64,000 nucleotides of DNA from Magnetococcales bacterium DCbin4 (GTDB lineage Bacteria > Pseudomonadota > Magnetococcia > Magnetococcales > UBA8363), in the NCBI GenBank assembly GCA_002753735.1, contig PEAN01000010.1, forward strand, positions 6,937-70,936, in the 5' to 3' direction. Under the pieces are notes generated by a model. The model ran no database searches. It worked only from the letters and a program-made list of their open reading frames with translations, and was not told the DNA's origin. Made by a program: the position numbers and the translations under genes. Below are positions 3,282-54,111 of this stretch, piece by piece. The stretch's first letter is position 1. The number at the start of each line of letters is the position of its first letter.

Positions 3282-3438
3282 CATGACGACACCCATTGAA
3301 TCGATTACGAACCGAAATCCCCGCTGAGACGAATTCAGGGGGATTGGACCGGGCAGCGATTTCATAACCGAAACGCCCCAGATCAGATCGCGTTGATCTG
3401 TCTTCAGCAAGGGGGCACCCACTGGGACAGTTCATGAT

Positions 3439-26065: not shown

Positions 26066-27448
26066 CTAGTCGATACCATTGACCATCTGTTCGTTCGGTT
26101 CAGAAGGAAACCGTTTGATCATCCACGCCAACAATAACAATCCGGGAAGCGCCGCTGCGGTCGTGACCAGAAAGAACAGCTCCCAGGACATATGGTCCGC
26201 CAACCAGCCCCCCGTAGAGGAAAGGATGGTGCGACCAAAGGACATGAACGAGGAAAGCAGTGCATACTGGGTGGCGGTATAGGCGATGTTGCACAGGGAA
26301 GAAAGATAGGCGACAAAGGCGGCGGTTCCCATGCCACCGCTTAAATTTTCGATCAGGATCGTCATCGTGAATGCGGTCATGTCATTACCCGCACGGGCCA
26401 GAATCACGAACATCAGGTTGGAGGCCAGTTGCAACACGCCACACCAGAGCAGCGAACGCATGACCCCCAGACGGTTGACCATCCACCCCCCCAGAAACGC
26501 CCCGACGATGGTGGCGGTCAACCCCACCACCTTGCTGATATCGGCGATTTGGATGCGGGTAAAACCCAGTTCGGTATAGAACGGATTGCCCATCACCCCG
26601 GCCAGGGCGTCGCCCAATTTGTAGAGCAGGATGAACAGCAACACCTGCACCCATCCCCTGCGGGTCATGAACTCGGCAAAAGGACCAATCACCGCCCCGG
26701 AAAACCACAACACCAAATTCCGGCCCGTCTCTCCCAGGTTGAGGGTCGCGATGCGGGCGCGCATCTTTCGTTCCAGCCGGAGCGAAGCGCCACTCACCGG
26801 GATCTCCGGTTCGGGGGCCAACAGCACGGTCAACATTCCCACACTCATGAGACCCGCCATGACCAGATAGGTGATCTTCCAGCCAAACCAGGTCGCCAGA
26901 TACAAGGCCAAAGCCCCGGAAGCCAACATCCCCAGGCGATACCCCAATACCACCACCGCCGCACCCGCCCCGTAATGATCAGCGTCAAGCGCTTCCACCC
27001 GATAGGCGTCAATCACGATGTCCTGGGTGGCAGACCAAAAGGCGGTACTCAAGGCGAACACGGCGGTCCACCACGGCACGATATCCGGAGATGACAACCC
27101 CATGGCCGCAATGGAACACACAAGGAAAAACTGGGTCAGCAACGCCCAACCGCGTCTGCGGCCAAAGGCCCGGGTCACCCCCGGAATCGGCAGACGATCC
27201 ACCAAAGGGGCCCAAAGAAATTTGAACGTGTACGGAATTCCCGTCAACGCAAACAGGCCAATGGAAGTTTTACTCACCCCCGATTCGGACAACCACAGCG
27301 ACAACGTGCCAAAGGTCAACGCCAACGGCAGCCCACTGGAAAACCCCAGGAACAACACCACTACGACCCGTGGATGTCCATAAACGTGGAAAAAATCAGT
27401 CACACTTGCCCATGGGTTGGATGAACCCCGTTGCATGCTCGTTCCCAT
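26066..27448 (-). CDS. ampG: MFS transporter, AmpG family (muropeptide permease)
   Basis: FLGFSSGLPLALTFGTLSLWL...GLFALTGIPYTFKFLWAPLVDR...GRRRGW is the AmpG signature. About 12-14 TM helices. Confidence 0.8.
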   Translation of the reverse strand: MGTSMQRGSSNPWASVTDFFHVYGHPRVVVVLFLGFSSGLPLALTFGTLSLWLSESGVSKTSIGLFALTGIPYTFKFLWAPLVDRLPIPGVTRAFGRRRGWALLTQFFLVCSIAAMGLSSPDIVPWWTAVFALSTAFWSATQDIVIDAYRVEALDADHYGAGAAVVVLGYRLGMLASGALALYLATWFGWKITYLVMAGLMSVGMLTVLLAPEPEIPVSGASLRLERKMRARIATLNLGETGRNLVLWFSGAVIGPFAEFMTRRGWVQVLLFILLYKLGDALAGVMGNPFYTELGFTRIQIADISKVVGLTATIVGAFLGGWMVNRLGVMRSLLWCGVLQLASNLMFVILARAGNDMTAFTMTILIENLSGGMGTAAFVAYLSSLCNIAYTATQYALLSSFMSFGRTILSSTGGWLADHMSWELFFLVTTAAALPGLLLLAWMIKRFPSEPNEQMVNGID

Positions 27449-27549
27449 CCCTCCTTAGTTTGATCCAAAAGAACGGTGATCGTAACCTTATTCCCCTGCA
27501 ACAGACACGGTTGATCAGCAGACATCGTCACTTTACAAAAATTAAATCG

Positions 27550-27804
27550 TCAGACTGAAGCACGACCCGGTGTCATCGCCTTAATCGATTGAACCAAGGC
27601 ATCGATTGTGGTCATGGACATCAACGCTTCGATGGAAAACCGAATATTGAAAATTTCCTCGGCCCTGGTAATGACTTGCATGTGGATGATGCTATCCCAG
27701 TTGGGAATATCCATCATGACCAGTTCCGGGACGATTTCCATGGTGTCATCTCCAAGGATCTTGCGGATTTCGTGAATCATGGTATCGAGGATCTGTGAGG
27801 ACAT
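27550..27804 (-). CDS. acyl carrier protein-like (phosphopantetheine attachment site)
   Basis: 84 aa. DIPNWDSIIHMQVI carries the DS(I/L) Ser attachment motif in ACP helix-II context. Confidence 0.65.
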   Translation of the reverse strand: MSSQILDTMIHEIRKILGDDTMEIVPELVMMDIPNWDSIIHMQVITRAEEIFNIRFSIEALMSMTTIDALVQSIKAMTPGRASV

Positions 27805-27950
27805 GGGGGGATCTCCCTATTGAACCTGGAATAGACAACAGCACCCGAAATCTTGAAATAGATACATGATTTTCCCACACGTTCATCGACCGGGAAGCCA
27901 TTTTGTACGCATTACGCATCTGGTGAAAAGACTGAAAATACCCATCGGCG

Positions 27951-29045
27951 TCATAATCCTTGATCTCCTTCACCAAGAACAAAATAATATCCCCCCTGCA
28001 AAATTGCCTGCAACAATTCCGTTGGACCTTTCATGAGACCACCGGCATCACCCGGGGTGACGACCTTGAAACGATGACGATTCAACCAGGAACGAACCCA
28101 CGGATAATCAAAGGAAGACAAACCCCGATATTCATTGCGGGCAGCCCACTGCATCACCCCGTCGAACAGGACACCGCCCACCTGGTCGATATCTGAATCA
28201 ACCCACAGATCAAGACATTCCAGGTAGGGGTATCCTCGCACAATCCGCCGCTCAAAAATTGCATATCCAGCCAGCGTCTCTCCCTGAAAACATCCAAACA
28301 GTAATTTCATTTTGGATGGAACGCTGAAACAATACCAGTTAACATACGTTGCATTGCGAACCCGGGTCGTCGAAAATGCGGTTCGAGTTCGCTGCCAAAG
28401 ATGATCAAATGCGACCCCTGCTTGGTTTAACTGTTTCACCTGCCAGGGTCCACTGGAATATTTTTGGGACAACAGCAACTTAATTCGAACATACCACTGA
28501 TGAAATGATCCCAGTCTCCATTGTAATCCGATGGGCCATCGTCGGATGATGGATACATCGTGAAGCCAAGCGAAAATACTTGAAAAAACCAGGATACGTT
28601 GCGAAAACGGGTAGGGAATTGGCTGATAATGGAGTCGTTCAACTATTGCTCCAGACAAATTATTAAGTGTCGTATTCCATATAATTGTATCAGCCCCTTC
28701 CCTCAATACGGATAGAAATAGAATCAGGCCATTTTTCCTGTATTCCGGAGTCACATACCAAGAAGATACAGTCAATGTCAATCGTTCCTTCCCTGCCAAC
28801 TGGAAAAGAATCGGAATACAGCTAATAAACCCAACAATTCGTCCTTCTGCCCTTAGTAACCAGCCCCGAGGGATTGAATCCTCACGGAAAGGATTTTTAT
28901 CCCACCACATGGCAAATTTTCCTTGCCAATATTCATTAGATCGTACAGTGTTCCGGAAATCATGTAATAATTCCGCAATACCATCATAATCATTCGGAGT
29001 AACGCCATGAACAGAAACTGCGTGAGTTGGCTGTGGATTATTCAT
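27951..29045 (-). CDS. GNAT-like acyltransferase family protein
   Basis: GWLLRAEGRIVGFISCIPI...SSWYVTPEYRKNGLILFLSVL is a GNAT motif-A-like region. Similar layout to the ORF at 60885..61754. Confidence 0.55.
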   Translation of the reverse strand: MNNPQPTHAVSVHGVTPNDYDGIAELLHDFRNTVRSNEYWQGKFAMWWDKNPFREDSIPRGWLLRAEGRIVGFISCIPILFQLAGKERLTLTVSSWYVTPEYRKNGLILFLSVLREGADTIIWNTTLNNLSGAIVERLHYQPIPYPFSQRILVFSSIFAWLHDVSIIRRWPIGLQWRLGSFHQWYVRIKLLLSQKYSSGPWQVKQLNQAGVAFDHLWQRTRTAFSTTRVRNATYVNWYCFSVPSKMKLLFGCFQGETLAGYAIFERRIVRGYPYLECLDLWVDSDIDQVGGVLFDGVMQWAARNEYRGLSSFDYPWVRSWLNRHRFKVVTPGDAGGLMKGPTELLQAILQGGYYFVLGEGDQGL

Positions 29046-29787
29046 ATCACACGAACATGATCTGTAAAAACCGTTTATTTATACTCAATTACCTTTTAGG
29101 CGACATGTTTATTCCGTCATCCGACAACGAAACAAAACGACTTTGCAACTGGCCACAAAACGGTCAATGACTTCCATAGCCAATATCTGCTCCCGTTTTG
29201 AAACACCGTGCAATAATGGCATAAGGGCGGTACAACCCATAGTGAATCCAATAAATGCCTGCATCACTTCGAAATCAGATCCAGGTAACGACTTAACCAT
29301 GATGATCCCGGTAATCGATACCATTGATCCACGACAAATGGATATCACGTTTTTCTAAGAAATATTCAATAATTAGCTTGAAATTTCATTCGCCCTCCGC
29401 GACAAGGCAAGAAAATCATCATAGCCATTTTCGGCACAAACAGAATGTGCCGATATACCAAGTCAGGGCCATTCAGTATCATTTCCACCTGGGGCGAACA
29501 CCGTCTGCCATCAGGAAGAATACTCAATAATATTTCCATAATCCAAACCATCAGAAAGCTGCCAGGATATCAGGATTATGGGCGACAATTTGTTCAATGA
29601 TATCGGATATCCCGTAATCCTCATGATCATTCATGAAAACAAATACTGAATACGTCATCATATTCTTATTGTGTCAGATATTCATGAAGAAGAGTAAAAG
29701 CCATGGAGCGCGCCCACTTTGGCATCCCTGGGTCTTGTTTGACATTGGAGTGTATTGTCAAGCAGGCGACCTTGATCAGTTTCTCTG

Positions 29788-29991
29788 TCATGTACAATCA
29801 ACAACTCCCAATAGATTCCCATCTGGATCAGTCACCGGAAAATGATTATTCCTGAAGCGGTGAACAAATGACCCGGTGAAGGGATGCCGCATGCAGCGAA
29901 GCCTGGTTAAGAAGACCAAAGCTGGCAAGATCGGATTCGAAACAGCTCCAAAGGTGGATTTGATAATGCGCGTCCCTGTTTGGCTGATCAT
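29788..29991 (-). pseudogene. possible remnant of a VOC/glyoxalase-fold gene
   Basis: The ORF ends ...NHFPVTDPDGNLLGVV, resembling the FxDPDGNxxEl C-terminus of VOC proteins. No intact N-terminal half. Neighbouring short ORFs lie in other frames. Confidence 0.3.
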
Positions 29992-30823
29992 TACGGCATC
30001 GAGACAATATGCCCTTTGAAAAAAAAAAAGTCAAAACCAAACCGCGGACAGATCATTCCTCCACACGATCCAGCAATACGTGACGGGGCAAAGACCCTGC
30101 TTGATCAAGCTGAAAGCATCCGACACCTAGGGAACATTAAGGATCAACAACAGATCCTCCTTGCCCGCATTCTCATGAACATCATCGGACCGATCAATGG
30201 TCGTCCCATTTCCGACACCGCTCCGGCCGATAGTTGCCGCTAAAAATCATCAATATTCAACCCCCCACATCCCAGTTGCCAATTGGATCGCCACCTTTTC
30301 GCACAACGGGTGCCGGGAACACCCTGACCATGGATTCATGCGACCAGCCTGTTCATTGATCAAAAGAAAAAATAGAAAAAACCCCCCAACGCCATCATTG
30401 CAGTGCAACGACTGGAAGATGTTCGCACAACACCGTCACCCCCTGGGATCATTCCTTCTGTTCCACCATGGCCTCGTCACGACCCTCGTCCATGCCTGGC
30501 GCCCCGCCATCCACCTTGACAGAACCCTTTCCATTCGCGCCCCCAACCACCCCTGTTCATCTCCCATGGCATTGCCCCCCGTCATTTATCCTTTCTTTAT
30601 TCTGAAATCGTGACACCAAACCGACCACGCTGACGATTCCATCACCATCTAATCATTTGTTTTAGAATATTTTATTTTAATATTTCCCCCAACACCCCCA
30701 ATCACCTGGAATTTATCATGACAATTTGATATAAACCAAGCATAAAGAATCGAAGGGGAAATAACGCTGCAGGAACCAGAATACCTCTATTTTTCAACAT
30801 CAAACCATTCATAAAGGATTTGT

Positions 30824-32182
30824 ATGCAACGGTTCATCCTCATGCTGTTGACTGCATTTCTGGCCCCCGCCACTGCATGGGCCAGCTCCACCACGCCAAA
30901 CATGGAGGGGCCGGCACTCTTTGGCATCCCCCTCGATTTCATGTTGTTCGCCCTGGTCCTCCTCGGTGTGGCACTCTTTCACAACAATACCTTGCAGGTC
31001 GCCGTCACCGGTGTCACCACCATCATCATCTATAAATTGATCTTCACCGGTTTCAAACACGGAGATGGCCTGACTGGACTGGCGCTGCATTTCCAGCATG
31101 AATGGGTCATTCTGACCAATCTGCTCTGTCTGCTCATGGGATTTGCCCTGCTGTCCAACCATTTTGAACACAGCAAGGTACCTGACATTCTCCCCCGCTT
31201 CCTCCCTGGCGGCTGGGTCGGTAATTTTATCCTGCTGATTTTAATCTTCGTCCTTTCCAGCTTCCTCGACAACATCGCCGCCGCCCTCATCGGTGGCACC
31301 ATCGCCAAAAGCGTCTTTCGCAACAAGGTTCATATCGGTTATCTGGCCGCCATCGTCGCCGCCTCCAATGCCGGAGGAGCAGGCAGTGTCGTCGGTGATA
31401 CCACCACCACCATGATGTGGATCGCAGGCATCAGCCCCCTGGCGGTCCTCCACGCTTATGCCGGGGCATTCGCCGCCCTGCTGATCTTCGGCATCCCGGC
31501 ATCCATCCAGCAAGACAAACACTGCGCCATCAATTCCGATATCCCCGCCGACATCAAAGTCGATGGCCTGCGGGTCGCTCTGGTGGCCTTCATCCTGGTC
31601 ATGGCCATCAGTGTCAACACGTTCATCAATGTCAAGTTCAATGAAATTTCTGATACCTTCCCCTTCATCGGCGTTGCCGTCTGGATCGCAATCCTGGTCT
31701 CCGCCCCCATCCGCAGCCCCGATTGGAAACTGCTCCCTGATACCTTCAAGGGAAGCATTTTTCTCCTCTCTCTCGTGGTATGTGCCTCACTGATGCCGGT
31801 AGAAAAGCTTCCCGCCGCCTCCTGGGCCACCGCATTGGGACTGGGTTACGTCTCCGCCGTCTTCGACAACATCCCCTTGACGGCCCTGGCGATCAAACAG
31901 GGTGGCTACGATTGGGGGGTTCTCGCCTATTCAGTTGGTTTCGGCGGTTCAATGATCTGGTTCGGCTCATCTGCCGGGGTCGCCCTCTCCAACATGTTCC
32001 ATGAAGCGAAATCGGTGGGCCAATGGCTCAAACACGGTTGGCATGTCGCCGTCGCCTACACCATCGGATTTTTCATCATGCTCACCCTCGTTGGCTGGCA
32101 TCCGACCGCAGATCGTTACCACCAGGGAACCAATGGTCATCCCACCACTCCAGTCGAAATGACCGCACCCGCGCCTCACTGA
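30824..32182 (+). CDS. NhaD/ArsB/CitMHS-superfamily ion transporter (NhaD-like antiporter)
   Basis: 452 aa and highly hydrophobic. SFLDNIAAALIGG and SAVFDNIPLTALAI are repeated half-motifs typical of this permease superfamily. Confidence 0.6.
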   Translation: MQRFILMLLTAFLAPATAWASSTTPNMEGPALFGIPLDFMLFALVLLGVALFHNNTLQVAVTGVTTIIIYKLIFTGFKHGDGLTGLALHFQHEWVILTNLLCLLMGFALLSNHFEHSKVPDILPRFLPGGWVGNFILLILIFVLSSFLDNIAAALIGGTIAKSVFRNKVHIGYLAAIVAASNAGGAGSVVGDTTTTMMWIAGISPLAVLHAYAGAFAALLIFGIPASIQQDKHCAINSDIPADIKVDGLRVALVAFILVMAISVNTFINVKFNEISDTFPFIGVAVWIAILVSAPIRSPDWKLLPDTFKGSIFLLSLVVCASLMPVEKLPAASWATALGLGYVSAVFDNIPLTALAIKQGGYDWGVLAYSVGFGGSMIWFGSSAGVALSNMFHEAKSVGQWLKHGWHVAVAYTIGFFIMLTLVGWHPTADRYHQGTNGHPTTPVEMTAPAPH

Positions 32183-45464: not shown

Positions 45465-47018
45465 TCAGGCCAGCCAGGGACTCAGTCCTTCCAGGGCCAA
45501 TGCCCGAACCTGGTCGGTCACCCGGGGATCGACGAATACGCGGGCCAGGCGGCGGCGACTCTGGCCGAGGAAATGAACCAATGGACTGACCTGTTCTGCG
45601 GGTCGCACCGTCCCCTCCTGCGTGATGACATAGACCGGATCCGCGCCCAAGGGATCATATTGCAGGTGGGAATAGGGGGCACGCTGAATCCGATCCACCC
45701 GTGCCAACAAACGCAACGGAACATTCAAATAACCCCCATCCTCCTGAGGGGTTGCGATCATGTCCTCATCATGGTCGCGAAAAAACCGTTCAACCCGTTC
45801 CACAAGCTGAGGGTCATGGATCAAATCGGTCGCCTGTGGTGCTGCCCGTAACGTCGGATCCAATGCCACGCCCCCGGGGAACGGGGTGAAACCAAAAGAC
45901 AACTGCCCTTGATCCTCGCCTCCCGTCGGCATGTTCCACCTCAGTCGGCGATAAATGGACTGGCGATGACAAAACATGCGGCAACGCTGCCGCAACTCGC
46001 CCTGTACCGCCGTGCGCGGTTCCATGCTGGCCCAACGTCCAAGGGCATAATCGACCACCGTATCATCCAAAGCAAGAAATGCTTCGACCCCGGGATCCCG
46101 TCCCTGACGGGCGCTGGTCAGAAAAGTCACCAATGGCGGTGGTGTTTCAGGGGGTGGCGCTCCTTCAAGGGTCCAGATCCAATCGATGAGGCCGAAAATA
46201 TGGACCAGCAAGGTTTCAAAGGCGCGCACCGTCTTGTGATCATAGACCTGACGATACATGTGATCCCGGGCGAAAATATAGCTTTCCAGGGCGGCAGGCC
46301 CTTTACCCAGATCGACACACAACCGCAAACGTCCATCCACCGGTTGCACGTTCAAGGAGTGCAGCAGCCATTCCAGATCGAATCGGCCATAGGAGACCCC
46401 GGTACAATGGGCATCGCGCAACAGATAATCCATGCGGTCGGCGTCCAATTGACTGGAGATGAACGGCCTGCCGCTTAACCGTTCACTGGCACACGTACCG
46501 GAAGGCTGCCATATGTCACGCAAGGCATCCATGAACCGGTCCATCGCCAACCCCAATCGGTGACCATGTCGCTCCAGGAGGGTTCTGGGCAGACCCGGTT
46601 CCGAAAGAATGCGCCATCCCCAAGCTTCATGGTTGGGCAGATCGGGGAAAATATGTTCAAAGGCATGGGAATGGGGACCATGCCCGATATCGTGAAACAA
46701 GGCGGACACCTTGATGGCGAGGAGTTCAACCGGCTCAAGTCCGGTGAAACCACCCTGAATCGCCTGGGCGATCATTCTTTTGGCCAGGTGGAGCGTTCCC
46801 AGGGAATGCGAAAACCGTGAATGTTCCGCCGAAGGATAAATTTTCGCGGCGGGTCCCAACTGCCGGATGCGCCGCAGTCGTTGCATGGGGAGGGTATCGA
46901 TCAGGTCCAACAGCAACGCATCCCCCCAATCAACCGGGGCACAATCAGGGCCCTGGTCGATCCGATGCAGGATGATCATGTCATGCACCGCATCACGAAA
47001 TACCTTGCGGGCAACCAT
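45465..47018 (-). CDS. SAMHD1-like HD-domain dNTP triphosphohydrolase family protein
   Basis: KVFRDAVHDMIILH...LIDTLPMQRLRRIRQLG...SAEHSRFSHSLGTLHLA...ALFHDIGHGPHSHAFE...DADRMDYLLRDAHCTGVSYG. Start trimmed to 47018. Confidence 0.75.
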   Translation of the reverse strand: MVARKVFRDAVHDMIILHRIDQGPDCAPVDWGDALLLDLIDTLPMQRLRRIRQLGPAAKIYPSAEHSRFSHSLGTLHLAKRMIAQAIQGGFTGLEPVELLAIKVSALFHDIGHGPHSHAFEHIFPDLPNHEAWGWRILSEPGLPRTLLERHGHRLGLAMDRFMDALRDIWQPSGTCASERLSGRPFISSQLDADRMDYLLRDAHCTGVSYGRFDLEWLLHSLNVQPVDGRLRLCVDLGKGPAALESYIFARDHMYRQVYDHKTVRAFETLLVHIFGLIDWIWTLEGAPPPETPPPLVTFLTSARQGRDPGVEAFLALDDTVVDYALGRWASMEPRTAVQGELRQRCRMFCHRQSIYRRLRWNMPTGGEDQGQLSFGFTPFPGGVALDPTLRAAPQATDLIHDPQLVERVERFFRDHDEDMIATPQEDGGYLNVPLRLLARVDRIQRAPYSHLQYDPLGADPVYVITQEGTVRPAEQVSPLVHFLGQSRRRLARVFVDPRVTDQVRALALEGLSPWLA

Positions 47019-47129
47019 CCAGATCCCCCATTTTCCAAGTCGTGTTGGTAACAATGAATTGTTCTGGCACCAAAGGAATCGGCTACAATTCGGTAACGTG
47101 TATGATGACCAGGGCTTCCAACATTTTGG

Positions 47130-47149
47130 CCCCCCCCCCCCCGGGGGGG
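47130..47149. repeat. homopolymer tract C13 followed by G7
   Basis: ggCCCCCCCCCCCCCGGGGGGGatg read directly. Intergenic, between the helicase stop (47196) and the HD gene start (47018). Confidence 0.95.
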
Positions 47150-47195
47150 ATGATTGATGATCATTTTGGTCGTGATTTGTTGTCACAGGGAAAGT

Positions 47196-49514
47196 TCAGC
47201 TTGCTTGAGTCTTCCTCAGTGCCTCCCAAGCTGATTGAGGGTCGAAGACATTGCCAGCCAATTCCAGGTCAAGCAGTTCTTCCGAAAGATACGGATGATG
47301 CTTCTCGGTTTTCTTGATCGCTACATGACGGGCCAATGTCAGTGGCTCAGGGGGGCCATGCGCCACGAACCGTGACAACAGTGCTTCAACCTCTGGCACT
47401 TTGCACTTGTCGAGCCGCAGGAGCGTCCACTCCTGATTGGCTTTAATCCCTTCGGCAACCAACCAGAATCGCAGGGTATGCAAAACGCGGTCCCCCTGCC
47501 AGACAAACAATAACACCTCCGTCCCCTCTTGCAAAAGCCTGACCCTCCCTAAATCCAAACGCCGAAAATGGTCTCGTCCTTCCACCAACAACCTTTGAGC
47601 CCCGGCATCCAAATAGGGGGGGACATCGTCTGCCCCGTACAGGGCGAACATCTCCTGCCGTACCGCATCATGAATCCATGCCCCATTGCCGCTGAACAGG
47701 GGGGGTTGACCACCTTGACTGGGAGTCAAAATGATGGCCCGGCCCTTTTCATTGATTTCAAGGATCTGCCAGCGCTTTCCGGCAAACAGCAACATCTGGC
47801 CAGGTGCCAGGGGAAAATCCACCGGCAGCGTGCCCAGGGTCTTGCCGTTGCTGATCAAACGATATTCCTCAGGCGTTTGGAATGCGGCATAGAACGTGTA
47901 GTGGTTGACCACACGCTCTCCCATTGCTGCCAAAACCAATGTGCCGTCATGGTCCTGGGTGATGAGGTCGTGTTTCGCCAGATCCCTCAGGAGTTGCTTG
48001 AAATGGTTATTTCCCAATCCATGGAACGGACCCGTCTGACAGAACACCCGCCACGCCTCGTGCGGCTGGATACCACCCCGTTGCGCCAGGAGGGAAAGCA
48101 GCTGCTGCACCAGGGTGGAAAGATGCAACCGATTGGGACGGGGCGGTTCCGTCCAGCGTCGCAGCATCAGGTTAACCATGGCCACGGTTTGGAAGAAACG
48201 CATTCGCAAAAGGTCAACGACACTGACCAAGGGTGTCAGCGCACGCTCCTGGACATACAACCGCAACACGGAAGGGGATCCGCGTCGACCTGATCGACCC
48301 AACCGTTGCCGCAGGGCTGCAACTGACGGTGGACAGCCGATCTGGGCCACACTGGCCATTTGTCCAATATCGATCCCCAGTTCCAGGGTGGAAGTGCAGA
48401 TGGCCGTGGCAGGAGTGTCGCGCTGTTTCAAAGCCGCTTCCACATCTTCCCGTATGGCCTTGGACAAATTGCCATGGTGCGGCCAGAACTCGTTGGGGAG
48501 ATGCTGATCTTCGCACCTCCGGCGCAGCTTGTCGGCAATGATTTCCACCGTGCCCCTGGCATTGGCGAATACCAGATGCGAATCCCCACGTAAAGTTTGA
48601 AAAAGTGCCGTGATGATCTCATCCTGGTTCTCCTCATGCGGGGGCTTTTCATCCTCCGACGAAGAACCCCGTTGCCGGAACGGATCCCTTTCAATAAAAC
48701 CGTGCAGTTTTAAACGCACGGTCTGTCCGCCACCATCCGCTTGTACGATCTGACACGGCCATCGCCCATCGTGGCGCAGGGCACGCACGGCAAGCCCCGG
48801 TTCACCCAGGGTTGCGCTCAGACCGATGCGGGGCACCCGCCGACGGATGGTCAGCTCCAGTCGATGCAGCAAGGACTGGAGCTGCATCCCCCGTTCCGTG
48901 CCGATAAACGCGTGCAATTCATCCACCACAATACCGCACAGGGGCTGAAACAATGATGCCACCTGGCTACCACGCAGCACCATGAGGGCTTCCAACGATT
49001 CCGGGGTGATCAGGAGCACGCCTCCCGGTTCCTTGATGGCTCTGCCCTTCTCGGATGCCGAAACGTCCCCGTGGCGACGATGCAAAGGGAGATCCAGACG
49101 TTCACACAATCCTTGCAGGCGGTCGTATTGATCGTTGATCAAGGCTTTGAGGGGACTCACTGAGAGTACCCGGAAGCCCATGATCGTCGAGGTTTCTTGC
49201 AACAGGCGGGTAGCGAGGGGGAGATAAGCCGCCTCGGTTTTACCAGCGGCGGTGGCAGCGGAGACCACCACATCACGGTCTGCGGCAAGGATGGGCGGGA
49301 TGGCCCGTTCCTGGACATCGCGCAAGGTCGCCCACCCCTGTTCCCAGACCCATCGCTGAACTTGAGGATGCAATACGGCAAAGGCGTTGGATGGCCCGCA
49401 TTCGGCAGAGGATTCCACCGGATTGGCGACCCTGGCGGGAACGCCATCAGAGGCGGAAGTCATGGAGGTCGTCATCTCCGGTCGAAAGTGGCGTTGTCGG
49501 CCCGTCGGTGTCAT
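47196..49514 (-). CDS. DExH-box (Lhr/Ski2-like) helicase, third gene of the TerB-ATPase-helicase operon
   Basis: Motif I ATAAGKTEA, II VVDELHAF, III SATL, V TSTLELGIDIG, VI QRLGRSGRRG. Large C-terminal extension. Start ambiguous (49514, 49475 or 49463); all overlap the upstream gene. Confidence 0.8.
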   Translation of the reverse strand: MTPTGRQRHFRPEMTTSMTSASDGVPARVANPVESSAECGPSNAFAVLHPQVQRWVWEQGWATLRDVQERAIPPILAADRDVVVSAATAAGKTEAAYLPLATRLLQETSTIMGFRVLSVSPLKALINDQYDRLQGLCERLDLPLHRRHGDVSASEKGRAIKEPGGVLLITPESLEALMVLRGSQVASLFQPLCGIVVDELHAFIGTERGMQLQSLLHRLELTIRRRVPRIGLSATLGEPGLAVRALRHDGRWPCQIVQADGGGQTVRLKLHGFIERDPFRQRGSSSEDEKPPHEENQDEIITALFQTLRGDSHLVFANARGTVEIIADKLRRRCEDQHLPNEFWPHHGNLSKAIREDVEAALKQRDTPATAICTSTLELGIDIGQMASVAQIGCPPSVAALRQRLGRSGRRGSPSVLRLYVQERALTPLVSVVDLLRMRFFQTVAMVNLMLRRWTEPPRPNRLHLSTLVQQLLSLLAQRGGIQPHEAWRVFCQTGPFHGLGNNHFKQLLRDLAKHDLITQDHDGTLVLAAMGERVVNHYTFYAAFQTPEEYRLISNGKTLGTLPVDFPLAPGQMLLFAGKRWQILEINEKGRAIILTPSQGGQPPLFSGNGAWIHDAVRQEMFALYGADDVPPYLDAGAQRLLVEGRDHFRRLDLGRVRLLQEGTEVLLFVWQGDRVLHTLRFWLVAEGIKANQEWTLLRLDKCKVPEVEALLSRFVAHGPPEPLTLARHVAIKKTEKHHPYLSEELLDLELAGNVFDPQSAWEALRKTQAS

Positions 49515-50790
49515 CGAAGGTCAGGGGAACCAGATCCAGATTTTCTTCCTTCTGGATTTGAACCCGACCCAAAAGGTCCTCCCATGCCATACCGGGTGCG
49601 TGTTCCAGGACCGCAAGGAGGTCCAGAAAGGCCCGGATGGTGTTGCGAGGGGTTTGGAAATAGGCGCTGCCCATGGTTTGGGCGCAATGATGCATGAAGG
49701 CGTGCAAGGCTTCGTCGGGCACGGCCAACTTCGTCGGATCGCCACCAGCCTGCACCAGCCGCAGTTTACCCAACAGCACGTAAAGATCCTCCTGTGTCAG
49801 GTTGGCCAAGCGGATCACCGGACCGGAAAAGTCCCTCACTCCTGCCTGAGCCGCGAAGCGGTTCTCCCGCAAACGGCTTTCCAACGCAGAATAACTGTAA
49901 AGTCCCCGGCGGGGATCGGTCAGGAATTCCGGAGTCCCGGCCATCAGAAATCCCAATCCCTCCGTAGCACCCTGGAGGGCATCGTTGAGGATGCGCAGAA
50001 TCTGTTCATAATTACCCTGCCGCGCCTGGGTGTTGGCCATCTTGTAAAGATTGACCATTTCATCCAACCCCACCAGCAGCCCTCGATAGTCTGCCAGTCG
50101 GACGAAGCGGGCCATCAGTTTGAGCTGGTCGTAAACATTGGCATCGTCCACAATGGTCCGCACCCCCAGGGCGTGGCGCGCTTCGGTTCGGGTGGCATAC
50201 TCCCCGCGCAACCAGCGGACGGCATCGGTCTTAAGCGAATCATTACCACTCTCGTGTCCGCGCCAATAGGCCGCAATGACCTCAGCGAAATCATAGCCGC
50301 CCACCATCTCTGAAAGATGCTCCAGACGGCGGTAGATCACTGTTTCCACAGACTCCCCAGAGTTCTTGCCCTCTTTGAGGGCCGTACTGACGAACCGTTC
50401 CACGACACTGGATAAGGCACCCCCCTCGTGTTTGGTGCGCGTGGCCAGGTTTCGCATCAGTTCGGCGTACAGGATACGTGCTTGTCCCCGGGTGGCGTGT
50501 AAACGGCGATCGGGGTTGAGGTCGGCTGTAGCGACCACGAGACCTTTTTCCAATGCAATGGCGCGAATCAGATTGAGAAAGAACGTCTTTCCGGATCCGT
50601 AATCGCCGATGATGAAGCGAATGGTCGCCCCACCATCCAGCAGACGGTCCAGATCGTCCACCAAGGCATGCACTTCCTCAGCCCGTCCCACTTGGATGTG
50701 TTGCAGGCCATGGCGCGGCGCCACTCCGGCGCGCAAAGATTGCAGGATGGCGCTGCGTTCCCGGGGACGCAGTGGAACGACATGGCTCAT
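49447..50790 (-). CDS. DUF2791/BrxD-like P-loop ATPase, second gene of the operon
   Basis: SAILQSLRAGVAPRHGLQHIQVGRAEEV...RFIIGDYGSGKTFFL (Walker A), LLVGLDEM (Walker B). ATGA overlap with the TerB gene stop at 50787-50790. Confidence 0.75.
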   Translation of the reverse strand: MSHVVPLRPRERSAILQSLRAGVAPRHGLQHIQVGRAEEVHALVDDLDRLLDGGATIRFIIGDYGSGKTFFLNLIRAIALEKGLVVATADLNPDRRLHATRGQARILYAELMRNLATRTKHEGGALSSVVERFVSTALKEGKNSGESVETVIYRRLEHLSEMVGGYDFAEVIAAYWRGHESGNDSLKTDAVRWLRGEYATRTEARHALGVRTIVDDANVYDQLKLMARFVRLADYRGLLVGLDEMVNLYKMANTQARQGNYEQILRILNDALQGATEGLGFLMAGTPEFLTDPRRGLYSYSALESRLRENRFAAQAGVRDFSGPVIRLANLTQEDLYVLLGKLRLVQAGGDPTKLAVPDEALHAFMHHCAQTMGSAYFQTPRNTIRAFLDLLAVLEHAPGMAWEDLLGRVQIQKEENLDLVPLTFDDTDGPTTPLSTGDDDLHDFRL

Positions 50791-53387
50791 GAGATCATCT
50801 CCTCGACGATATCCCGATTGACAGTGATGGGATCCTCTCCTTCCACCAGGGGATTGCCACACGCGACAAAGGCCGCTTCGTTGATCGCTTCCATGGCGCC
50901 GTCGGGTAGCAACGCCAATTCAGCGCACAGGATCTCATAAGAGGCTCTGGCCCATGTCCCCTGCTCCCGCAACCGGTGGAACAGGCTCAGGAGTTCACCC
51001 TCCAATCCCGGCACGCTTGGCAGCGCAACCTCTGCGGAAGCGGACACGACGGGTGCTGTGACAGGTGTGGGTTCATCTTGTTCTGCGACAAAAATCGTTG
51101 CCAACAATCGTTGCACGGCCTCGGTATTGGCCATGGTGGACGCCACCTTGCGCATATCGAGTTGGACCCCCGGCACGGGGAGATGACCCAAAACCCCTGT
51201 CGGCGGTTGCATCAAGGGCATTTGTTGGCCGTGGTCCCACCCGTCCATGACTGGTTGGCGGGAAGCCGCCTGGAAGGCATGCAAGTCTGAGTGGATGGAC
51301 GCGGGATCCAGATGAAGCAATGGGTATAGGTTACCCAGAATTTTGATCTCGGCTGGATCAATGTGACCGTCAGAACCGGCAATGGCCATCAGGAATCGGG
51401 CAATCGTTTTCCCTTGTTCGACCGTCAACGCCCCCAGACGGCTTTTCAATCCGCTCAACCGGGGCCGTTCCTCCAACAACCATTCCAAGTGGGCCCCCAA
51501 ACGCCTTCTTTCCCAGAGTTCGAGTCCGTCCAGACAGACGAGGTACTCTGCCAATTGCTGGTATTCCTCTTGGGAGACCTGGCCATCGGCGCCGACCATC
51601 GTGGCCGCAAAATGTAAAGTGACCGCCGCGTTCTTAAAGGCTTGGGAGGGGGCCGCCCCCTCTGTTTCCTGTTGCCGGAAAAGGCAGAGTTTGCCATTTG
51701 GTTTGAGCTGAAACGGGCCAAAACGGATGTCGGGCTCCAATCCCACATGGAGCTTGCCCAGGAGTTGGGCCATGGCGACCGCTTCTTTTTTACTCACCCT
51801 GCCCGTTTCCTGCAACGGCCAGTGATGGAGCAGGTCGGCAGCCACCACCACCACCTGTTCTTCCCGCCCCAGGATCGTCCGGAGTGCCGAGGCCAGGGGC
51901 TCCAGGGGGGGCTCATTGACTTTTGCACGCAAAAGCACGGGGTGGAGCAGGGTCAACGCAGTCAGACTTCCAATCCGTTCGGGATCCCTCCCCAACAACC
52001 GGCTGTACGGCTCCAATTCCTCCATGCACCACTCGGCAATCTCCCGAATGGCCCTCATGGGTTTTTTCAAGGCGCTCACATCCGGCAAGGATGAAAGATG
52101 CTCCATGATTCGATGACCGAATCCACCACTGGCAGGTTGATAGGTCGCCTTGAGCAGGGTTTTGTTGGGCGGGATGATCATCCCTTCCAAATAATCCTGA
52201 TCGTAGCGCCAAAAGAACAGCTTGGCGAACATCTCCCAACAACGCGTGGCCGGTGTCCTCAGTCGGCTCTCGGGATCGGCCAACAGCCAAGCCAGGGCAA
52301 GATGCGCAGGAATCGGCTGATGCTCATGAACCAGCCGTCCAATATGGATCAACACATCCGATGGTGGATTATTCCAAACCCCCTGTTCCAGCAGATGGGT
52401 CTGCGTCAAAGGAACAGTAAAACCGTCGCGCAACGCCAGGAACGCCAGCAATCCGCCGGAATATCTACGAAACGAACCGTTGTTGCCATAAATCCGTCTC
52501 AGACGGAGGATCTCCCGGGACAATACAGGCCGCTCCTCCCGGGCATGCTCCGAGGTATCGACATCGACCAGCAGGCGGCGCTCCAGACCGTAATAATAGA
52601 GGAACACATAGCCGATGTTGGTATCCGGGGATTGGGCACCGTCGGCAAGCCACTCCAAATACGCTGCCCGGGCGCTTGGCCGAAACTCGGAGTAGGAGGG
52701 CCAATAGTCCAATGTACTGCCTGACCGATCCGGCAGGAGGGAATCGATGGGTTGGCGGGGGCGGATGAGGGATGGTTCCACACCATCCGCTTTGAAAGCG
52801 CCAAATGCGGATGAAAGCTGGTTGCCCACATAGACCATGCCCCCCGGGATCACGTACCCTTGCACTGAAACCGGCTTGCCTGCCGGAATCCAGCAATCGT
52901 CTCCATGTTGTGCCAAGGTCGGAAGCGGGGATGACGGTAAAGTCCATTCGCGTCGTGCTTCGACTTCATCAATTCGCAGCGCGACAAGTGATCGATCATG
53001 CAGATCTGGGATCGGCTCCGATGAAGGTTGGTGGATGCAATGTCGGGATTGAGGAAACCACTCTTGCGAAGAACTGAGTTGAGAAGGGGAAGAGGTGACC
53101 TCACATTCATGCCCCCCACAGTGACTTCCCCCATCTTGCGACAGACTGTCGGGTGATGGAACTGGGGTTTCGGGCGGTCTGGTCACATGTTTTGATTTTG
53201 GAGCATACGCACCCGTGGGTGGTTGTGGAAAAGGGGATTTGCGCAGTCTGGTCACATGTTTTGATTTTGGAACAGGCGCGCCCGTGGAGGGATTTGGGGA
53301 TTGAGATGGATCAGAAGGTTTGGCTTTTTCTCCAAACAACCAACGATGGCCAATGAACACCACTCCGAGCAGAAGCAAAAACTCCAT
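50787..53387 (-). CDS. TerB-domain protein (TerB-N / TerB / TerB-C-like), first gene of the operon
   Basis: N-terminal TM helix MEFLLLLGVVFIG and a Pro-rich duplicated linker. WIPAGKPVSVQGYVIPGGMVYVG is TerB-N-like. Two TerB-type motifs: ATMVGADGQVSQEEYQQL and MAIAGSDGHIDPAEIKIL. Confidence 0.7.
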   Translation of the reverse strand: MEFLLLLGVVFIGHRWLFGEKAKPSDPSQSPNPSTGAPVPKSKHVTRLRKSPFPQPPTGAYAPKSKHVTRPPETPVPSPDSLSQDGGSHCGGHECEVTSSPSQLSSSQEWFPQSRHCIHQPSSEPIPDLHDRSLVALRIDEVEARREWTLPSSPLPTLAQHGDDCWIPAGKPVSVQGYVIPGGMVYVGNQLSSAFGAFKADGVEPSLIRPRQPIDSLLPDRSGSTLDYWPSYSEFRPSARAAYLEWLADGAQSPDTNIGYVFLYYYGLERRLLVDVDTSEHAREERPVLSREILRLRRIYGNNGSFRRYSGGLLAFLALRDGFTVPLTQTHLLEQGVWNNPPSDVLIHIGRLVHEHQPIPAHLALAWLLADPESRLRTPATRCWEMFAKLFFWRYDQDYLEGMIIPPNKTLLKATYQPASGGFGHRIMEHLSSLPDVSALKKPMRAIREIAEWCMEELEPYSRLLGRDPERIGSLTALTLLHPVLLRAKVNEPPLEPLASALRTILGREEQVVVVAADLLHHWPLQETGRVSKKEAVAMAQLLGKLHVGLEPDIRFGPFQLKPNGKLCLFRQQETEGAAPSQAFKNAAVTLHFAATMVGADGQVSQEEYQQLAEYLVCLDGLELWERRRLGAHLEWLLEERPRLSGLKSRLGALTVEQGKTIARFLMAIAGSDGHIDPAEIKILGNLYPLLHLDPASIHSDLHAFQAASRQPVMDGWDHGQQMPLMQPPTGVLGHLPVPGVQLDMRKVASTMANTEAVQRLLATIFVAEQDEPTPVTAPVVSASAEVALPSVPGLEGELLSLFHRLREQGTWARASYEILCAELALLPDGAMEAINEAAFVACGNPLVEGEDPITVNRDIVEEMIS

Positions 53388-53663
53388 GCACTTTCCCCAG
53401 AGGCTTTGGATTTCATTCGATATGGCATGATCATATCAGTTGTTTATTTCTTCCGCAAGACGACAGCATACCCTTCACAGGCTTGCAATCATGCCATCCA
53501 TACCTCACAACATTAAACTTTACTTTGATTGTCGATCAGGAACGAAAAAACTTCATATACTATGATAAAAAACACCAGGCAGGAGTGAATCGGGGGACCA
53601 ACCGCTCCACGCATCATGCATGAAAGCATTCATGACAATCCCTTGATCCCCATTTGATCTTGA

Positions 53664-54098
53664 TCATACCGACGGAAGGTCGTTGAGTGTCGCCCAGGCC
53701 CTTTGATAACGCTGCATCCGCGCCCAATCCCGTTCATCGGGGACATGATCCAGACGGCGAACATCCATGTTGTCGATCAAATCCAATAATTTGATCTTCC
53801 GGGCAACCCGATTGGGCTTCAACCGCGCGATATAATCTTCATAACTGTCCTCAGCACGGTGGGTCAGAAGATCCACCACCGATAAAACCGATTCGGAAAA
53901 CCCTTCGCGCTCCAAATCTTTCAAGGTGATCGGGGTATCCTCCACCACATCATGAAGCAGGGCGATCATCTGATGGGAGGGATCGTCCAACTGCATCATC
54001 AACCGAAGTGGGTGCAGGATATACGGCTGACCCGACCGGTCAACCTGCCCCTCATGATACCGGGCCGCCAGGGCCAAAGCCTTCTCCAGAGTAGACAT
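53664..54098 (-). CDS. small HD-domain protein (SpoT/RelA hydrolase-like, putative alarmone hydrolase)
   Basis: ALALAARYHEGQVDRSGQPYILHPLRL...ALLHDVVEDT is the HD_4 pattern. 144 aa. Confidence 0.7.
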   Translation of the reverse strand: MSTLEKALALAARYHEGQVDRSGQPYILHPLRLMMQLDDPSHQMIALLHDVVEDTPITLKDLEREGFSESVLSVVDLLTHRAEDSYEDYIARLKPNRVARKIKLLDLIDNMDVRRLDHVPDERDWARMQRYQRAWATLNDLPSV

Positions 54099-54111
54099 GA
54101 TCACCTGCCGA

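What the first reader, a model, noticed from the sequence alone, without database searches (positions are those of the whole stretch)
47196..53387. TerB-domain protein / DUF2791-like ATPase / DExH helicase operon: Shango-type antiphage architecture
Seen in sequence: three overlapping minus-strand genes. The first is an 866-aa membrane-anchored protein with a TerB-N-like GGMVYVG region and two TerB-type ADG/SDG...E helices. The second is a 447-aa P-loop ATPase (GDYGSGKT, LVGLDEM) resembling BrxD/DUF2791, and it starts at an ATGA overlap with the TerB gene stop. The third is a 772-aa DExH helicase with motifs I-VI whose 5' end overlaps the ATPase gene. Established knowledge: comparative genomics predicted TerB-N/TerB-C plus ATPase plus helicase triads to be membrane-linked DNA-processing conflict systems. 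This gene trio corresponds to the experimentally supported Shango defence system (SngA/B/C). The mechanism is still unknown. This copy has a duplicated Pro-rich N-terminal linker and sits next to a dNTPase.
Basis: partly seen in the sequence, partly recalled or inferred. Interest (0 to 1): 0.7.

Follow-up and report, generated by a model that had tools for sequence, protein, structure and literature searches.

The report
Shango antiphage cassette in a Magnetococcales genome
This is an intact three-gene copy of Shango, a known bacterial anti-virus system whose mechanism is unknown, and in this magnetotactic bacterium it was inserted between two ancestral housekeeping genes, so the find is solid but ordinary.

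Summary
The three overlapping minus-strand genes exist as described and match the Shango profiles over nearly their full length: SngA E 1.5e-78, SngB 2e-175, SngC 5e-263. These scores are close to those of an E. coli plasmid Shango. Walker A/B and all helicase motifs are intact and invariant across relatives.

In 82 of 82 related loci from many phyla, SngA is followed directly by SngB. SngC follows in 77; the other five contigs end first. No fourth gene recurs.

The neighbouring "dNTPase" is not part of the system. It is a core Magnetococcales gene. In three contigs of close relatives that lack Shango, it overlaps the small SpoT-like HD gene by 4 nt. The cassette is therefore a ~6.65-kb insertion (47019..53663) that split this two-gene operon.

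SngC models as a full-length Lhr-core-type helicase with no nuclease domain. SngB belongs to the BrxD family. SngA has an N-terminal hydrophobic helix, a disordered Pro/Ser linker with a 69-nt tandem duplication, then TerB_N, a conserved unnamed middle region, TerB and TerB_C.

The most likely mechanism is inferred, not shown: a membrane-tethered sensor/scaffold recruits an ATPase loader and a 3'-5' DNA translocase to incoming DNA.

Verdict: a new member of a known kind, of low to moderate interest.

The parts
50787..53387 (-). sngA: 866-aa TerB_N / TerB / TerB_C protein, the sensor or scaffold component
   Evidence: Found as an ORF. Pfam TerB_N E 3.3e-47, TerB E 9.6e-10, TerB_C E 2.5e-21. PADLOC SngA E 1.5e-78, covering profile positions 30-523 of 528. 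34% identical over residues 166-864 to the SngA of an E. coli IncF plasmid.
53334..53384 (-). SngA residues 2-18: N-terminal hydrophobic helix, the putative membrane anchor
   Evidence: AF2 models a helix at residues 2-18. Kyte-Doolittle mean is 1.79 over 17 residues. The 'ME + hydrophobic stretch + basic residues' pattern is the same as in E. coli SngA. A comparable helix occurs in 66 of 120 homologues. Membrane insertion itself is inferred.
52926..53333 (-). SngA residues 19-154: disordered Pro/Ser-rich linker, not conserved in homologues
   Evidence: pLDDT is below 50 for residues 19-154. The segment is 17% Pro and 17% Ser. Homologues align only from about residue 155-166 onwards.
53152..53289 (-). 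Tandem duplication of 69 nt (23 codons) inside the linker
   Evidence: Direct repeat D1: two copies, 80% identical, 69 nt apart. It encodes ...PKSKHVTR... twice.
52248..52886 (-). TerB_N domain, residues 168-380
   Evidence: Pfam PF13208 matches profile positions 1-207 of 207, E 3.3e-47. Invariant residues include Y186, G188, Y228, W229, Y232, R240, Y266, G267, E269 and R271.
51609..52247 (-). Conserved middle region of SngA, residues 381-593, with no Pfam model
   Evidence: Invariant residues are R382, G402, S420, L458, S462, R463, G466, P552, D553, R555 and F556. It is modelled with confidence as an alpha/beta fold. Foldseek finds no match in the PDB.
51294..51608 (-). TerB domain, residues 594-698, with two DG...E motifs
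   Evidence: Pfam PF05099 E 9.6e-10. Sequence and fold matches to TerB-type structures 2h5n, 2jxu and 2ou3. D601, E608, D673, G674 and E680 are conserved.
50799..51173 (-). TerB_C domain, residues 739-863, the candidate adaptor to SngB/SngC
   Evidence: Pfam PF15615 E 2.5e-21. It is the only part shared (41% identity) with the Sel1-repeat head protein that precedes SngB/SngC in locus L088.
49447..50790 (-). sngB: 447-aa BrxD-family (PF10923) P-loop ATPase
   Evidence: Pfam BrxC_BrxD E 1.8e-151. PADLOC SngB E 2e-175, against BrxD E 1.6e-45. ATGA overlap with sngA. Walker A G62, G65, G67 and K68 and Walker B D243 and E244 are invariant in 79 of 79 sequences.
47196..49463 (-). sngC: 755-aa Lhr-core-type DExH SF2 helicase. 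The ORF is open upstream to 49514.
   Evidence: PADLOC SngC E 5.4e-263, BrxHI E 3.4e-116. Motifs Q, I, Ia, II, III, IV, V and VI are invariant in 74 of 74 sequences. The AF2 model (pLDDT 82.5) matches M. smegmatis Lhr-core 5v9x over its whole length, TM 0.68/0.66. It overlaps sngB by 17 nt.
53388..53663 (-). 276-nt AT-rich spacer (43% GC) upstream of sngA, at the left end of the insertion. It contains a sigma-70-like site at 53562..53589.
   Evidence: GC 0.428. TTCACT-16-TATCAT matches 9 of 12 positions. The scan found no more sites than shuffles do, so this is only a candidate promoter.
47019..47195 (-). 177-nt spacer between the sngC stop and the HD517 start, at the right end of the insertion. 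It contains a C7G13 homopolymer tract and a sigma-70-like site at 47157..47186.
   Evidence: Sequence read. Promoter-like site. The fold is no more stable than shuffled sequence.
53664..54104 (-). Flank, not part of the system: 146-aa SpoT-like HD_4 gene, the upstream half of the split ancestral operon
   Evidence: Pfam HD_4 E 8.1e-07 and NCBIfam spoT_relA E 5.1e-17. In L084, L085 and L086 it overlaps the 517-aa HD gene by 4 nt.
45465..47018 (-). Flank, not part of the system: 517-aa SAMHD1/EF1143-type HD phosphohydrolase, the downstream half of the split ancestral operon
   Evidence: PDB sequence matches to 2o6i (EF1143) at E 1.7e-40 and to SAMHD1 at about 1e-23. Orthologues occur throughout Magnetococcales. 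It is absent from 82 of 82 other Shango loci.

Best explanation
The locus is a complete and apparently functional Shango (SngA-SngB-SngC) antiphage cassette. It was acquired horizontally and inserted as a ~6.65-kb block (47019..53663) between two core genes of a Magnetococcales bacterium.

Proposed mechanism, marked step by step:
1. SngA is tethered to the inner membrane by its N-terminal helix through a long disordered linker. The domains are shown; the membrane location is inferred.
2. Its TerB_N, middle and TerB part acts as the sensor or scaffold. This is inferred.
3. Its TerB_C domain docks the other two proteins. This is inferred from a relative in which only TerB_C is kept while the head is replaced.
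4. SngB, an ORC/Cdc6-like AAA+ ATPase of the BrxD family, uses ATP to load or activate SngC. This is inferred by analogy with the BrxD-BrxHI pair of type 2 BREX.
5. SngC is an Lhr-core-type DExH helicase. The fold is shown. By homology it should move 3'-to-5' along single-stranded DNA. It would act on phage DNA as it enters or begins to replicate near the membrane.
6. None of the three proteins has a nuclease domain. The system therefore either blocks replication directly or hands the DNA to host nucleases. This is inferred.

The three genes are translationally coupled by 4-nt and 17-nt overlaps and are probably transcribed from the AT-rich spacer that came in with the cassette.

The confidence of 0.85 refers to the identification as an intact Shango cassette inserted between the HD genes. 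The mechanistic model alone would be about 0.3.
For: Family assignment: near-full-length profile matches to SngA, SngB and SngC, with bit scores close to those of an E. coli plasmid Shango (264/582/873 against 349/618/936). The Pfam domains agree.

Co-conservation: 82 of 82 loci keep the order A then B. SngC follows in 77, and the remaining five contigs end first. No other gene recurs within 4 kb.

Intact catalytic residues: the Walker A/B residues and all helicase motifs are invariant in 74-79 relatives and present here.

Mobility:
- Relatives occur in more than 15 phyla.
- SngA and SngB relatives are on 680-686 plasmids, 540-541 of them conjugative.
- In an E. coli plasmid the trio is flanked by IS elements.
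- In Magnetococcus loci it sits next to BREX genes or an integrase.

Insertion: in L084, L085 and L086 the order is queG-nadA-HD_4-HD517-ChaN/PDZ, with HD_4 and HD517 overlapping by 4 nt. In the window the same flanks enclose the cassette.

Helicase type: the AF2 model matches Lhr-core 5v9x over the whole chain, followed by MrfA. Sequence matches are to Lhr and YprA.

Loader idea: BrxD is classified as an ORC/Cdc6 AAA+ ATPase, is tightly linked to BrxHI, and has been proposed as its loader (PMC12839542).

Adaptor idea: the protein upstream of SngB/SngC in L088 has Sel1 repeats, a ZorC-like region and TerB_C only.

Experimental defence activity of Shango: PMC10250203 and bioRxiv 10.1101/2022.05.11.491447.
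Against: - No experiment exists for this copy or this host. The published phenotypes are modest (10-100-fold).
- The mechanism is unknown in the literature held here, so steps 2 to 6 rest on homology and gene context only.
- The N-terminal helix is borderline as a membrane span: Kyte-Doolittle 1.52 over 19 residues, with His and Arg inside it. About 45% of close homologues lack such a helix.
- The adaptor role of TerB_C rests on a single variant locus.
- The promoter candidates are no more frequent than in shuffled sequence.
- GC and GC3 of the cassette equal those of the flanks, so composition gives no independent sign of recent transfer.
Confidence: 0.85

Rival explanations
1. The ATPase and helicase are a remnant or satellite of a type 2 or type 6 BREX system (BrxD + BrxHI), not Shango.
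For: SngB also matches BrxD (E 1.6e-45) and SngC matches BrxHI over its full length (E 3.4e-116). NCBIfam BREX_BrxD matches at E 5.3e-45. One Magnetococcus Shango locus lies next to brxL and pglZ.
Against: The Sng profiles score far higher than the BREX ones: 582 against 154 bits, and 873 against 387 bits. The NCBIfam BrxD score of 154 is well below its cut-off of 350. The genes examined around the cassette and most of the other large ORFs of the window are housekeeping, none is PglZ, PglX, BrxC or PglW, and the only other defence-like genes are the HEC-01 pair. A TerB_N/TerB_C gene precedes the pair with an ATGA overlap, as in all 82 relatives.
Confidence: 0.03
2. The trio is a housekeeping stress-response or DNA-repair module rather than an immune system. 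It would be a Ter-type metal or membrane stress sensor coupled to an Lhr/MrfA-like repair helicase.
For: TerB was first described in tellurite resistance. The closest solved helicases, Lhr and MrfA, are DNA-repair enzymes. No nuclease or toxin effector is present. Apart from the HEC-01 candidate pair 45 kb away, the window holds housekeeping genes, not a defence island.
Against: The closest Magnetococcales relatives lack the cassette at this site. The family has a patchy, cross-phylum distribution with heavy carriage on plasmids and next to IS elements or integrases. SngA diverges much faster (33-45% identity) than SngB (59-74%) or SngC (43-62%) across the same loci, as expected for a component facing phage. 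Homologous trios give measured phage protection in two species.
Confidence: 0.07
3. The system has four genes: the downstream SAMHD1-like dNTPase (and perhaps the upstream SpoT-like HD gene) works with Shango as a nucleotide-depletion effector.
For: The HD gene starts 177 nt after sngC on the same strand with no convincing terminator between them, so read-through transcription is plausible. dNTP-depleting enzymes are a known class of defence; this point is from my own knowledge. PADLOC gives a weak dGTPase match, E 0.0034.
Against: There is no HD573 or HD146 homologue in any of the 82 other Shango loci and no recurrent fourth gene. The HD gene has orthologues throughout Magnetococcales at 78% down to 45% identity. 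In three contigs without Shango it is directly coupled to the small HD gene in the same nadA-queG context. The adjacency is therefore a consequence of where the insertion landed.
Confidence: 0.03
4. The cassette mainly excludes other mobile DNA, such as incoming conjugative plasmids, rather than phage. It would act on single-stranded DNA entering at the membrane.
For: 540-541 of the 680-686 plasmids that carry relatives are conjugative. An Lhr-type 3'-5' single-stranded-DNA translocase tethered at the membrane would suit the single-stranded DNA delivered by conjugation; this is inference.
Against: The only published phenotypes are antiphage. No conjugation data were found in the library. This rival does not exclude the best explanation, because both could be true.
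Confidence: 0.1

Closest known systems
Shango (SngA/SngB/SngC) of E. coli and P. aeruginosa PA14 (Millman et al. 2022; Johnson et al. 2023)
   Same: It has the same three genes in the same order with overlapping reading frames and the same domain set: an N-terminal hydrophobic helix, TerB_N, TerB and TerB_C; a PF10923 ATPase; and a DExH helicase. PADLOC matches are near full length. Identity to an E. coli IncF plasmid trio is 34%, 61% and 44% for SngA, SngB and SngC.
   Different: The host lineage is Magnetococcales. The N-terminal linker is longer (about 135 residues) and carries a 23-residue duplication. The cassette sits alone between core genes rather than in a defence hotspot or on a plasmid. 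This copy has not been tested.
BrxD-BrxHI pair of type 2 (Pgl) and type 6 BREX
   Same: Both have a homologous ATPase and a homologous Lhr-like helicase as a tightly linked pair. They probably share the loader-plus-translocase logic.
   Different: There is no PglZ, PglX methyltransferase, BrxC or PglW here, and no sign of epigenetic self/non-self marking. Here the pair is coupled to a TerB-domain protein instead. The profile scores clearly favour the Sng subfamilies.
Mycobacterial Lhr-core and B. subtilis MrfA/YprA repair helicases
   Same: These are the best structural and sequence matches for SngC over the whole chain: two RecA domains, a winged helix and a C-terminal domain.
   Different: Sequence identity is only 16-20%. 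Those enzymes are stand-alone repair factors, whereas SngC is always encoded with SngA and SngB.
Zorya (ZorAB membrane sensor with ZorC and the ZorD helicase-nuclease)
   Same: The concept is similar: a membrane-anchored sensing part coupled to an SF2 helicase that acts on invading DNA. A Shango variant head in L088 even carries a ZorC-like 'EH signature' region.
   Different: The window's proteins show no homology to ZorA, ZorB or ZorD. Shango has no ion-driven motor and no nuclease domain. The resemblance is in how it might work, not in family membership.
Other TerB-containing defence systems: Bunzi (BnzA) and Dionysus (DinB)
   Same: They share a TerB domain and the proposed idea of membrane surveillance.
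   Different: Those systems pair TerB with pore-forming or other membrane effectors, not with an ATPase and a helicase. They lack TerB_N and TerB_C.

Membership tests
Shango | SngA: a protein with TerB_N and TerB_C domains, usually with a central TerB domain | tested here: met
   Pfam TerB_N 161 bits, TerB 39 bits and TerB_C 77 bits, all above the gathering cut-offs. PADLOC SngA E 1.5e-78, covering profile positions 30-523 of 528.
Shango | SngB: a PF10923 (DUF2791/BrxC_BrxD) P-loop ATPase with intact Walker A and B motifs | tested here: met
   Pfam E 1.8e-151. PADLOC SngB E 2e-175, covering positions 5-426 of 439. G62, G65, G67, K68, D243 and E244 are present and invariant in 79 sequences.
Shango | SngC: a DEAD/DExH SF2 helicase of the SngC/BrxHI clade with intact motifs | tested here: met
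   PADLOC SngC E 5.4e-263, covering positions 3-718 of 720. Motifs Q and I-VI are present and invariant in 74 sequences. The fold is that of Lhr-core.
Shango | The three genes are adjacent, on one strand, in the order A-B-C | tested here: met
   The A/B overlap is 4 nt and the B/C overlap is 17 nt. The order is the same in all related loci and in an annotated E. coli plasmid.
Shango | It confers protection against phage, dependent on the ATPase and the helicase | not testable with these tools
   Published evidence covers only the E. coli and P. aeruginosa systems. This copy needs heterologous expression and plaque assays.
BREX type 2 / type 6 | PglZ phosphatase and BrxC/PglY ATPase core genes (with the PglX methyltransferase) in the same locus as BrxD and BrxHI | tested here: not met
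   None of the genes examined in the window (the cassette's neighbours and most other large ORFs) has a PglZ, PglX or BrxC match. The NCBIfam BrxD score of 154 is below its cut-off of 350.
Ter (tellurite resistance) stress-response cluster | terZABCDEF-type genes (TerD-family, TerC and TerA proteins) accompany TerB | tested here: not met
   Among the genes examined, no TerD, TerC or TerA family match lies next to the cassette or elsewhere in the window. Here TerB is one internal domain of a larger TerB_N/TerB_C protein.
Defence dGTPase / dNTP-depletion systems (for the neighbouring HD gene) | A significant match to a defence dNTPase model, together with variable, island-like genomic placement | tested here: not met
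   The PADLOC dGTPase match is only E 0.0034, 14.8 bits. The gene is a syntenic core gene across Magnetococcales.

The most novel reading that the evidence does not exclude
Shango may be one face of a broader modular family. In that family the TerB_C domain is the constant adaptor that couples interchangeable sensor heads to a BrxD-type loader and an Lhr-type helicase, the same pair that type 2 and type 6 BREX use. Known heads would be the membrane-anchored TerB_N/TerB head here and the Sel1-repeat plus ZorC-like head in Magnetococcus sp. MYC-9 (L088). If so, the unknown Shango mechanism would reduce to membrane-proximal loading of a 3'-5' translocase on entering DNA, and head swapping would set what is sensed.
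Probability: 0.3. Interest if true: 0.55.

Novelty: new member of a known kind. Interest (0 to 1): 0.3.

Why it matters
The locus adds a clean, intact Shango copy from a little-studied lineage of magnetotactic bacteria. Its insertion boundaries are unusually well defined because three contigs of close relatives show the empty site. That settles which genes belong to the system: three, and not the neighbouring HD genes.

The comparison also gives three leads on the unknown Shango mechanism:
- SngA evolves much faster than SngB and SngC.
- The membrane helix is a common feature of the family, present in roughly half of close homologues.
- TerB_C is the only part retained in a head-swapped variant.

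These points suggest which domain to mutate first. None of this is surprising to a specialist in phage defence. The system, its domains and its wide distribution are already catalogued.

Tried and rejected
1. Terminal repeats or target-site duplication at the insertion ends. Only an 8-nt exact match (AAATGGGG) was found, and 179 of 500 shuffles reached it. Rejected as chance.
2. Compositional evidence for transfer. GC and GC3 of the three genes (0.57-0.59 and 0.62-0.67) equal those of the flanking core genes. No signal. Only the upstream spacer is AT-rich.
3. A fourth conserved gene. All-against-all clustering of ORFs within 4 kb of 82 loci gave no family present in more than 5 loci.
5. No solved structure matches SngB by sequence.
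6. Promoter and terminator scans. There were 5 promoter-like sites against 4.8 expected. The terminator-like sites lie inside genes. These are candidates only.
7. The C7G13 tract downstream of sngC folds no better than shuffled sequence (z = -0.19).
8. Rfam found no RNA family between 44000 and 56500.
9. The 688-aa SngA call in GCA_015229035.1 is not a frameshift variant. The DNA is identical to the window.
10. The Anantharaman et al. 2012 paper that predicted the TerB_N/TerB_C-ATPase-helicase association is not in the held library. That point rests on citations and on my own knowledge.
Full report
**Observation**

The region 47196..53387 holds three long minus-strand ORFs exactly as described.

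The first ORF (50787..53387, 866 aa) has three Pfam domains, all far above the gathering cut-offs:
- TerB_N, residues 168-380, E 3.3e-47
- TerB, residues 594-698, E 9.6e-10
- TerB_C, residues 739-863, E 2.5e-21

The second ORF starts at ATG 50790, inside an ATGA that also holds the stop codon of the first. It encodes a 447-aa protein that matches Pfam BrxC_BrxD (PF10923, the former DUF2791) at E 1.8e-151.

The third ORF is open from 49514. NCBI's start at 49463 gives 755 aa and a 17-nt overlap with the second gene. It carries the DEAD and Helicase_C domains and a weak Lhr winged-helix match.

The "duplicated Pro-rich linker" is a genuine 69-nt tandem repeat at 53152-53289 with 80% identity. 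It lies in a segment that AlphaFold2 leaves disordered (residues 19-154).

**Family assignment**

All three proteins find their Shango counterpart as the best PADLOC match, with near-complete profile coverage:

| Protein | Best match | Next match |
|---|---|---|
| SngA | E 1.5e-78 | none |
| SngB | E 2e-175, 582 bits | BrxD, 154 bits |
| SngC | E 5.4e-263, 873 bits | BrxHI, 387 bits |

As a calibration, I scored an annotated trio on E. coli IncF plasmid NZ_CP054225.1 against the same models. It gives 349, 618 and 936 bits, against 264, 582 and 873 for the window. The window proteins are 34%, 61% and 44% identical to that trio over essentially their full conserved lengths. The E. coli SngA also begins with "ME + hydrophobic stretch + basic residues", like MEFLLLLGVVFIGHRWLFGEKAK here. 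This supports ATG 53387 as the true start.

One public annotation of identical DNA starts SngA at residue 179. That start would remove conserved positions from W166 onwards.

**Co-conservation**

A scan of one genome per species, using an alignment of 47 SngA homologues, returned 80 loci. They come from Desulfobulbaceae, Geobacteraceae, Planctomycetota, Cyanobacteria, Actinomycetota, Myxococcota, Acidobacteriota, Pseudomonas and others. Two Magnetococcus loci were added.
- In 82 of 82 loci, SngA is followed directly by an SngB homologue.
- In 77 loci an SngC homologue follows. The five exceptions are contigs that end first.
- Clustering of all flanking ORFs found no further gene shared by more than five loci.
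- Across these loci SngA is 33-45% identical to the window protein, SngB 59-74% and SngC 43-62%. SngA is the fastest-evolving part.
- The Walker A and B residues of SngB and helicase motifs Q, I, Ia, II (DExH), III, IV, V and VI of SngC are invariant in 74-79 sequences and intact here.

The family is large. It comprises 1,796 clusters at 50% identity with E below 1e-30. Relatives of SngA and SngB are on 680-686 plasmids, 540-541 of them conjugative and most from Klebsiella and Salmonella.

**The flanks and the island**

The downstream HD gene is best read as 517 aa (45465..47018). Its closest solved relatives are the dNTP triphosphohydrolases EF1143 (2o6i, E 1.7e-40) and SAMHD1. It is not part of Shango, for three reasons:
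- It has orthologues throughout Magnetococcales, with identity falling smoothly from 78% to 45%. These include Magnetococcus marinus, strain MO-1 and Magnetofaba.
- It is absent from all 82 other Shango loci.
- Three contigs of close relatives (L084, L085, L086) lack Shango. L086 shows the full order queG-nadA-HD_4(144 aa)-HD(517 aa)-ChaN/PDZ. L084 shows it as far as the HD gene, where the contig ends. L085 shows only the two HD genes and a partial upstream gene. In all three, the two HD genes share an ATGA overlap.

The window has the same flanking genes, but the three Shango genes sit between the two HD genes. On the left, homology to the empty site runs up to the ATGA at the HD_4 stop. On the right, it resumes at CCGCAAGG in codons 3-5 of the HD gene. 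The cassette is therefore an insertion of about 6.65 kb (47019..53663). It brought its own 276-nt AT-rich upstream spacer and split a translationally coupled two-gene operon.

Two other assemblies carry the same insertion with identical or nearly identical DNA (GCA_002753215.1 and GCA_015229035.1).

No integrase or significant terminal repeat lies at the junctions, and the only tRNA gene is about 6 kb beyond the cassette. GC and GC3 match the flanks. How and when the insertion happened therefore remains open. Most of the rest of the window is housekeeping. The exception is a candidate HEC-01 defence pair 45 kb away.

**Anatomy and likely mechanism**

The AlphaFold2 model of SngA (mean pLDDT 79.6) shows these parts:
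- a helix at residues 2-18
- a disordered linker at residues 19-154
- a confidently folded block from 155 to 713, made of TerB_N, a conserved alpha/beta middle region with no Pfam model and no PDB match, and a helical TerB domain
- two short disordered stretches
- a compact TerB_C at residues 790-866

A comparable N-terminal hydrophobic helix is present in 66 of the 120 closest homologues.

The SngC model (pLDDT 82.5) superposes on Mycobacterium smegmatis Lhr-core bound to single-stranded DNA (5v9x) over the whole chain (TM 0.68/0.66, E 2.6e-30). MrfA is the next match. There is no extra nuclease domain.

Lhr-core is a 3'-to-5' single-stranded-DNA translocase; this is established for that enzyme and cited. 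A 2026 comparative study classifies BrxD as an ORC/Cdc6-type AAA+ ATPase, notes its tight linkage to the Lhr-like BrxHI, and proposes that it loads or activates the helicase (PMC12839542). An independent phylogeny places SngC, BrxHI, DruE and DpdJ in one defence-specific clade (PMC12278908).

A variant locus in Magnetococcus sp. MYC-9 (L088) has SngB and SngC homologues scoring 590 and 829 PADLOC bits. The protein upstream of them has Sel1 repeats, a ZorC-like region and only the TerB_C domain of SngA, which is 41% identical to the window's.

Taken together, the best-supported model is that SngA is a membrane-tethered sensor or scaffold. Its TerB_C domain would dock an SngB loader and an SngC 3'-5' translocase, which then act on incoming or replicating foreign DNA. 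Because no nuclease is present, the outcome would be either a direct block or a hand-over to host nucleases. The domain content, the conservation and the fold are shown. The membrane location, the docking role, the loading step and the target are inferred.

**Comparison with known systems and novelty**

The locus passes every testable defining feature of Shango. It fails those of BREX type 2/6 (no PglZ, PglX or BrxC) and of Ter clusters (no TerD, TerC or TerA). Shango was validated in E. coli and in P. aeruginosa PA14 with modest protection. Its mechanism was still described as unclear in a September 2025 preprint. No Shango protein appears in the PDB copy by sequence or fold.

This is therefore a new member of a known kind. 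What this analysis adds is the exact extent of the cassette, the demonstration that the dNTPase adjacency is incidental, and some pointers towards the mechanism.

**Scores**

The confidence of 0.85 refers to the identification as an intact Shango cassette inserted between the HD genes. I would put the mechanistic model alone at about 0.3. Interest is 0.3.

Noticed in passing
window 45465..47018 and 53664..54104; loci L084, L085, L086: In Magnetococcales without Shango, a 144-aa SpoT-like HD_4 gene and a 517-aa SAMHD1/EF1143-like HD gene form a conserved pair with a 4-nt overlap, next to nadA and queG. The function of this pairing of an alarmone-hydrolase-like protein with a dNTPase-like protein is unknown. 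In the window the pair has been split by the cassette, and the HD517 start codon context has changed (ATGAGCCGC to ATGGTTGCC).
   Followed up: partly
L088 6944..12163 (Magnetococcus sp. MYC-9, JAMOAY010000009.1): This is a head-swapped Shango variant. Typical SngB and SngC genes are preceded by a 594-aa protein with Sel1 repeats, a region matching the ZorC 'EH signature' (E 8e-13) and only the TerB_C domain. A phage-type integrase lies about 2.4 kb upstream.
   Followed up: partly
window 1471..3422, minus strand: A second candidate defence pair lies 45 kb from Shango. A 438-aa AAA_21/AAA_15 ATPase matches PADLOC HEC-01A (E 2.4e-186), and the adjacent 213-aa protein matches HEC-01B (E 1.6e-76).
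   Followed up: partly
L017 12139..13017 and L025 (Geobacteraceae): In these two Shango loci there is a gap of about 1 kb between sngA and sngB. In L017 it holds a 292-aa gene with a Bro-N domain (E 4e-08). The L017 SngA also carries repeated Cys-rich (CxxC...CxC) units in its N-terminal extension.
   Followed up: partly
window 47128..47150, minus strand: A C7G13 homopolymer tract (CCCCCCCGGGGGGGGGGGGG) lies about 45 nt downstream of the sngC stop. It is unusual sequence that could be slippage-prone or an assembly artefact. Its predicted fold is no better than shuffled sequence.
   Followed up: partly
L002 6862..11500 and L003 233..3613 (Magnetococcus sp. YQC-5): This genome carries two Shango copies. 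One is adjacent to BREX genes (brxL, pglZ). The other is adjacent to a UvrD-type helicase and a DUF1016/YhcG nuclease-like gene. Both settings look like defence islands, unlike the solitary copy in the window.
   Followed up: no
window 27000..31000: This is a low-GC stretch (0.44-0.48 against about 0.55 for the window). It contains a GNAT-like gene (27951..29045) and a 452-aa ORF (30824..32182) with no Pfam or PADLOC match. It may be another acquired segment.
   Followed up: no
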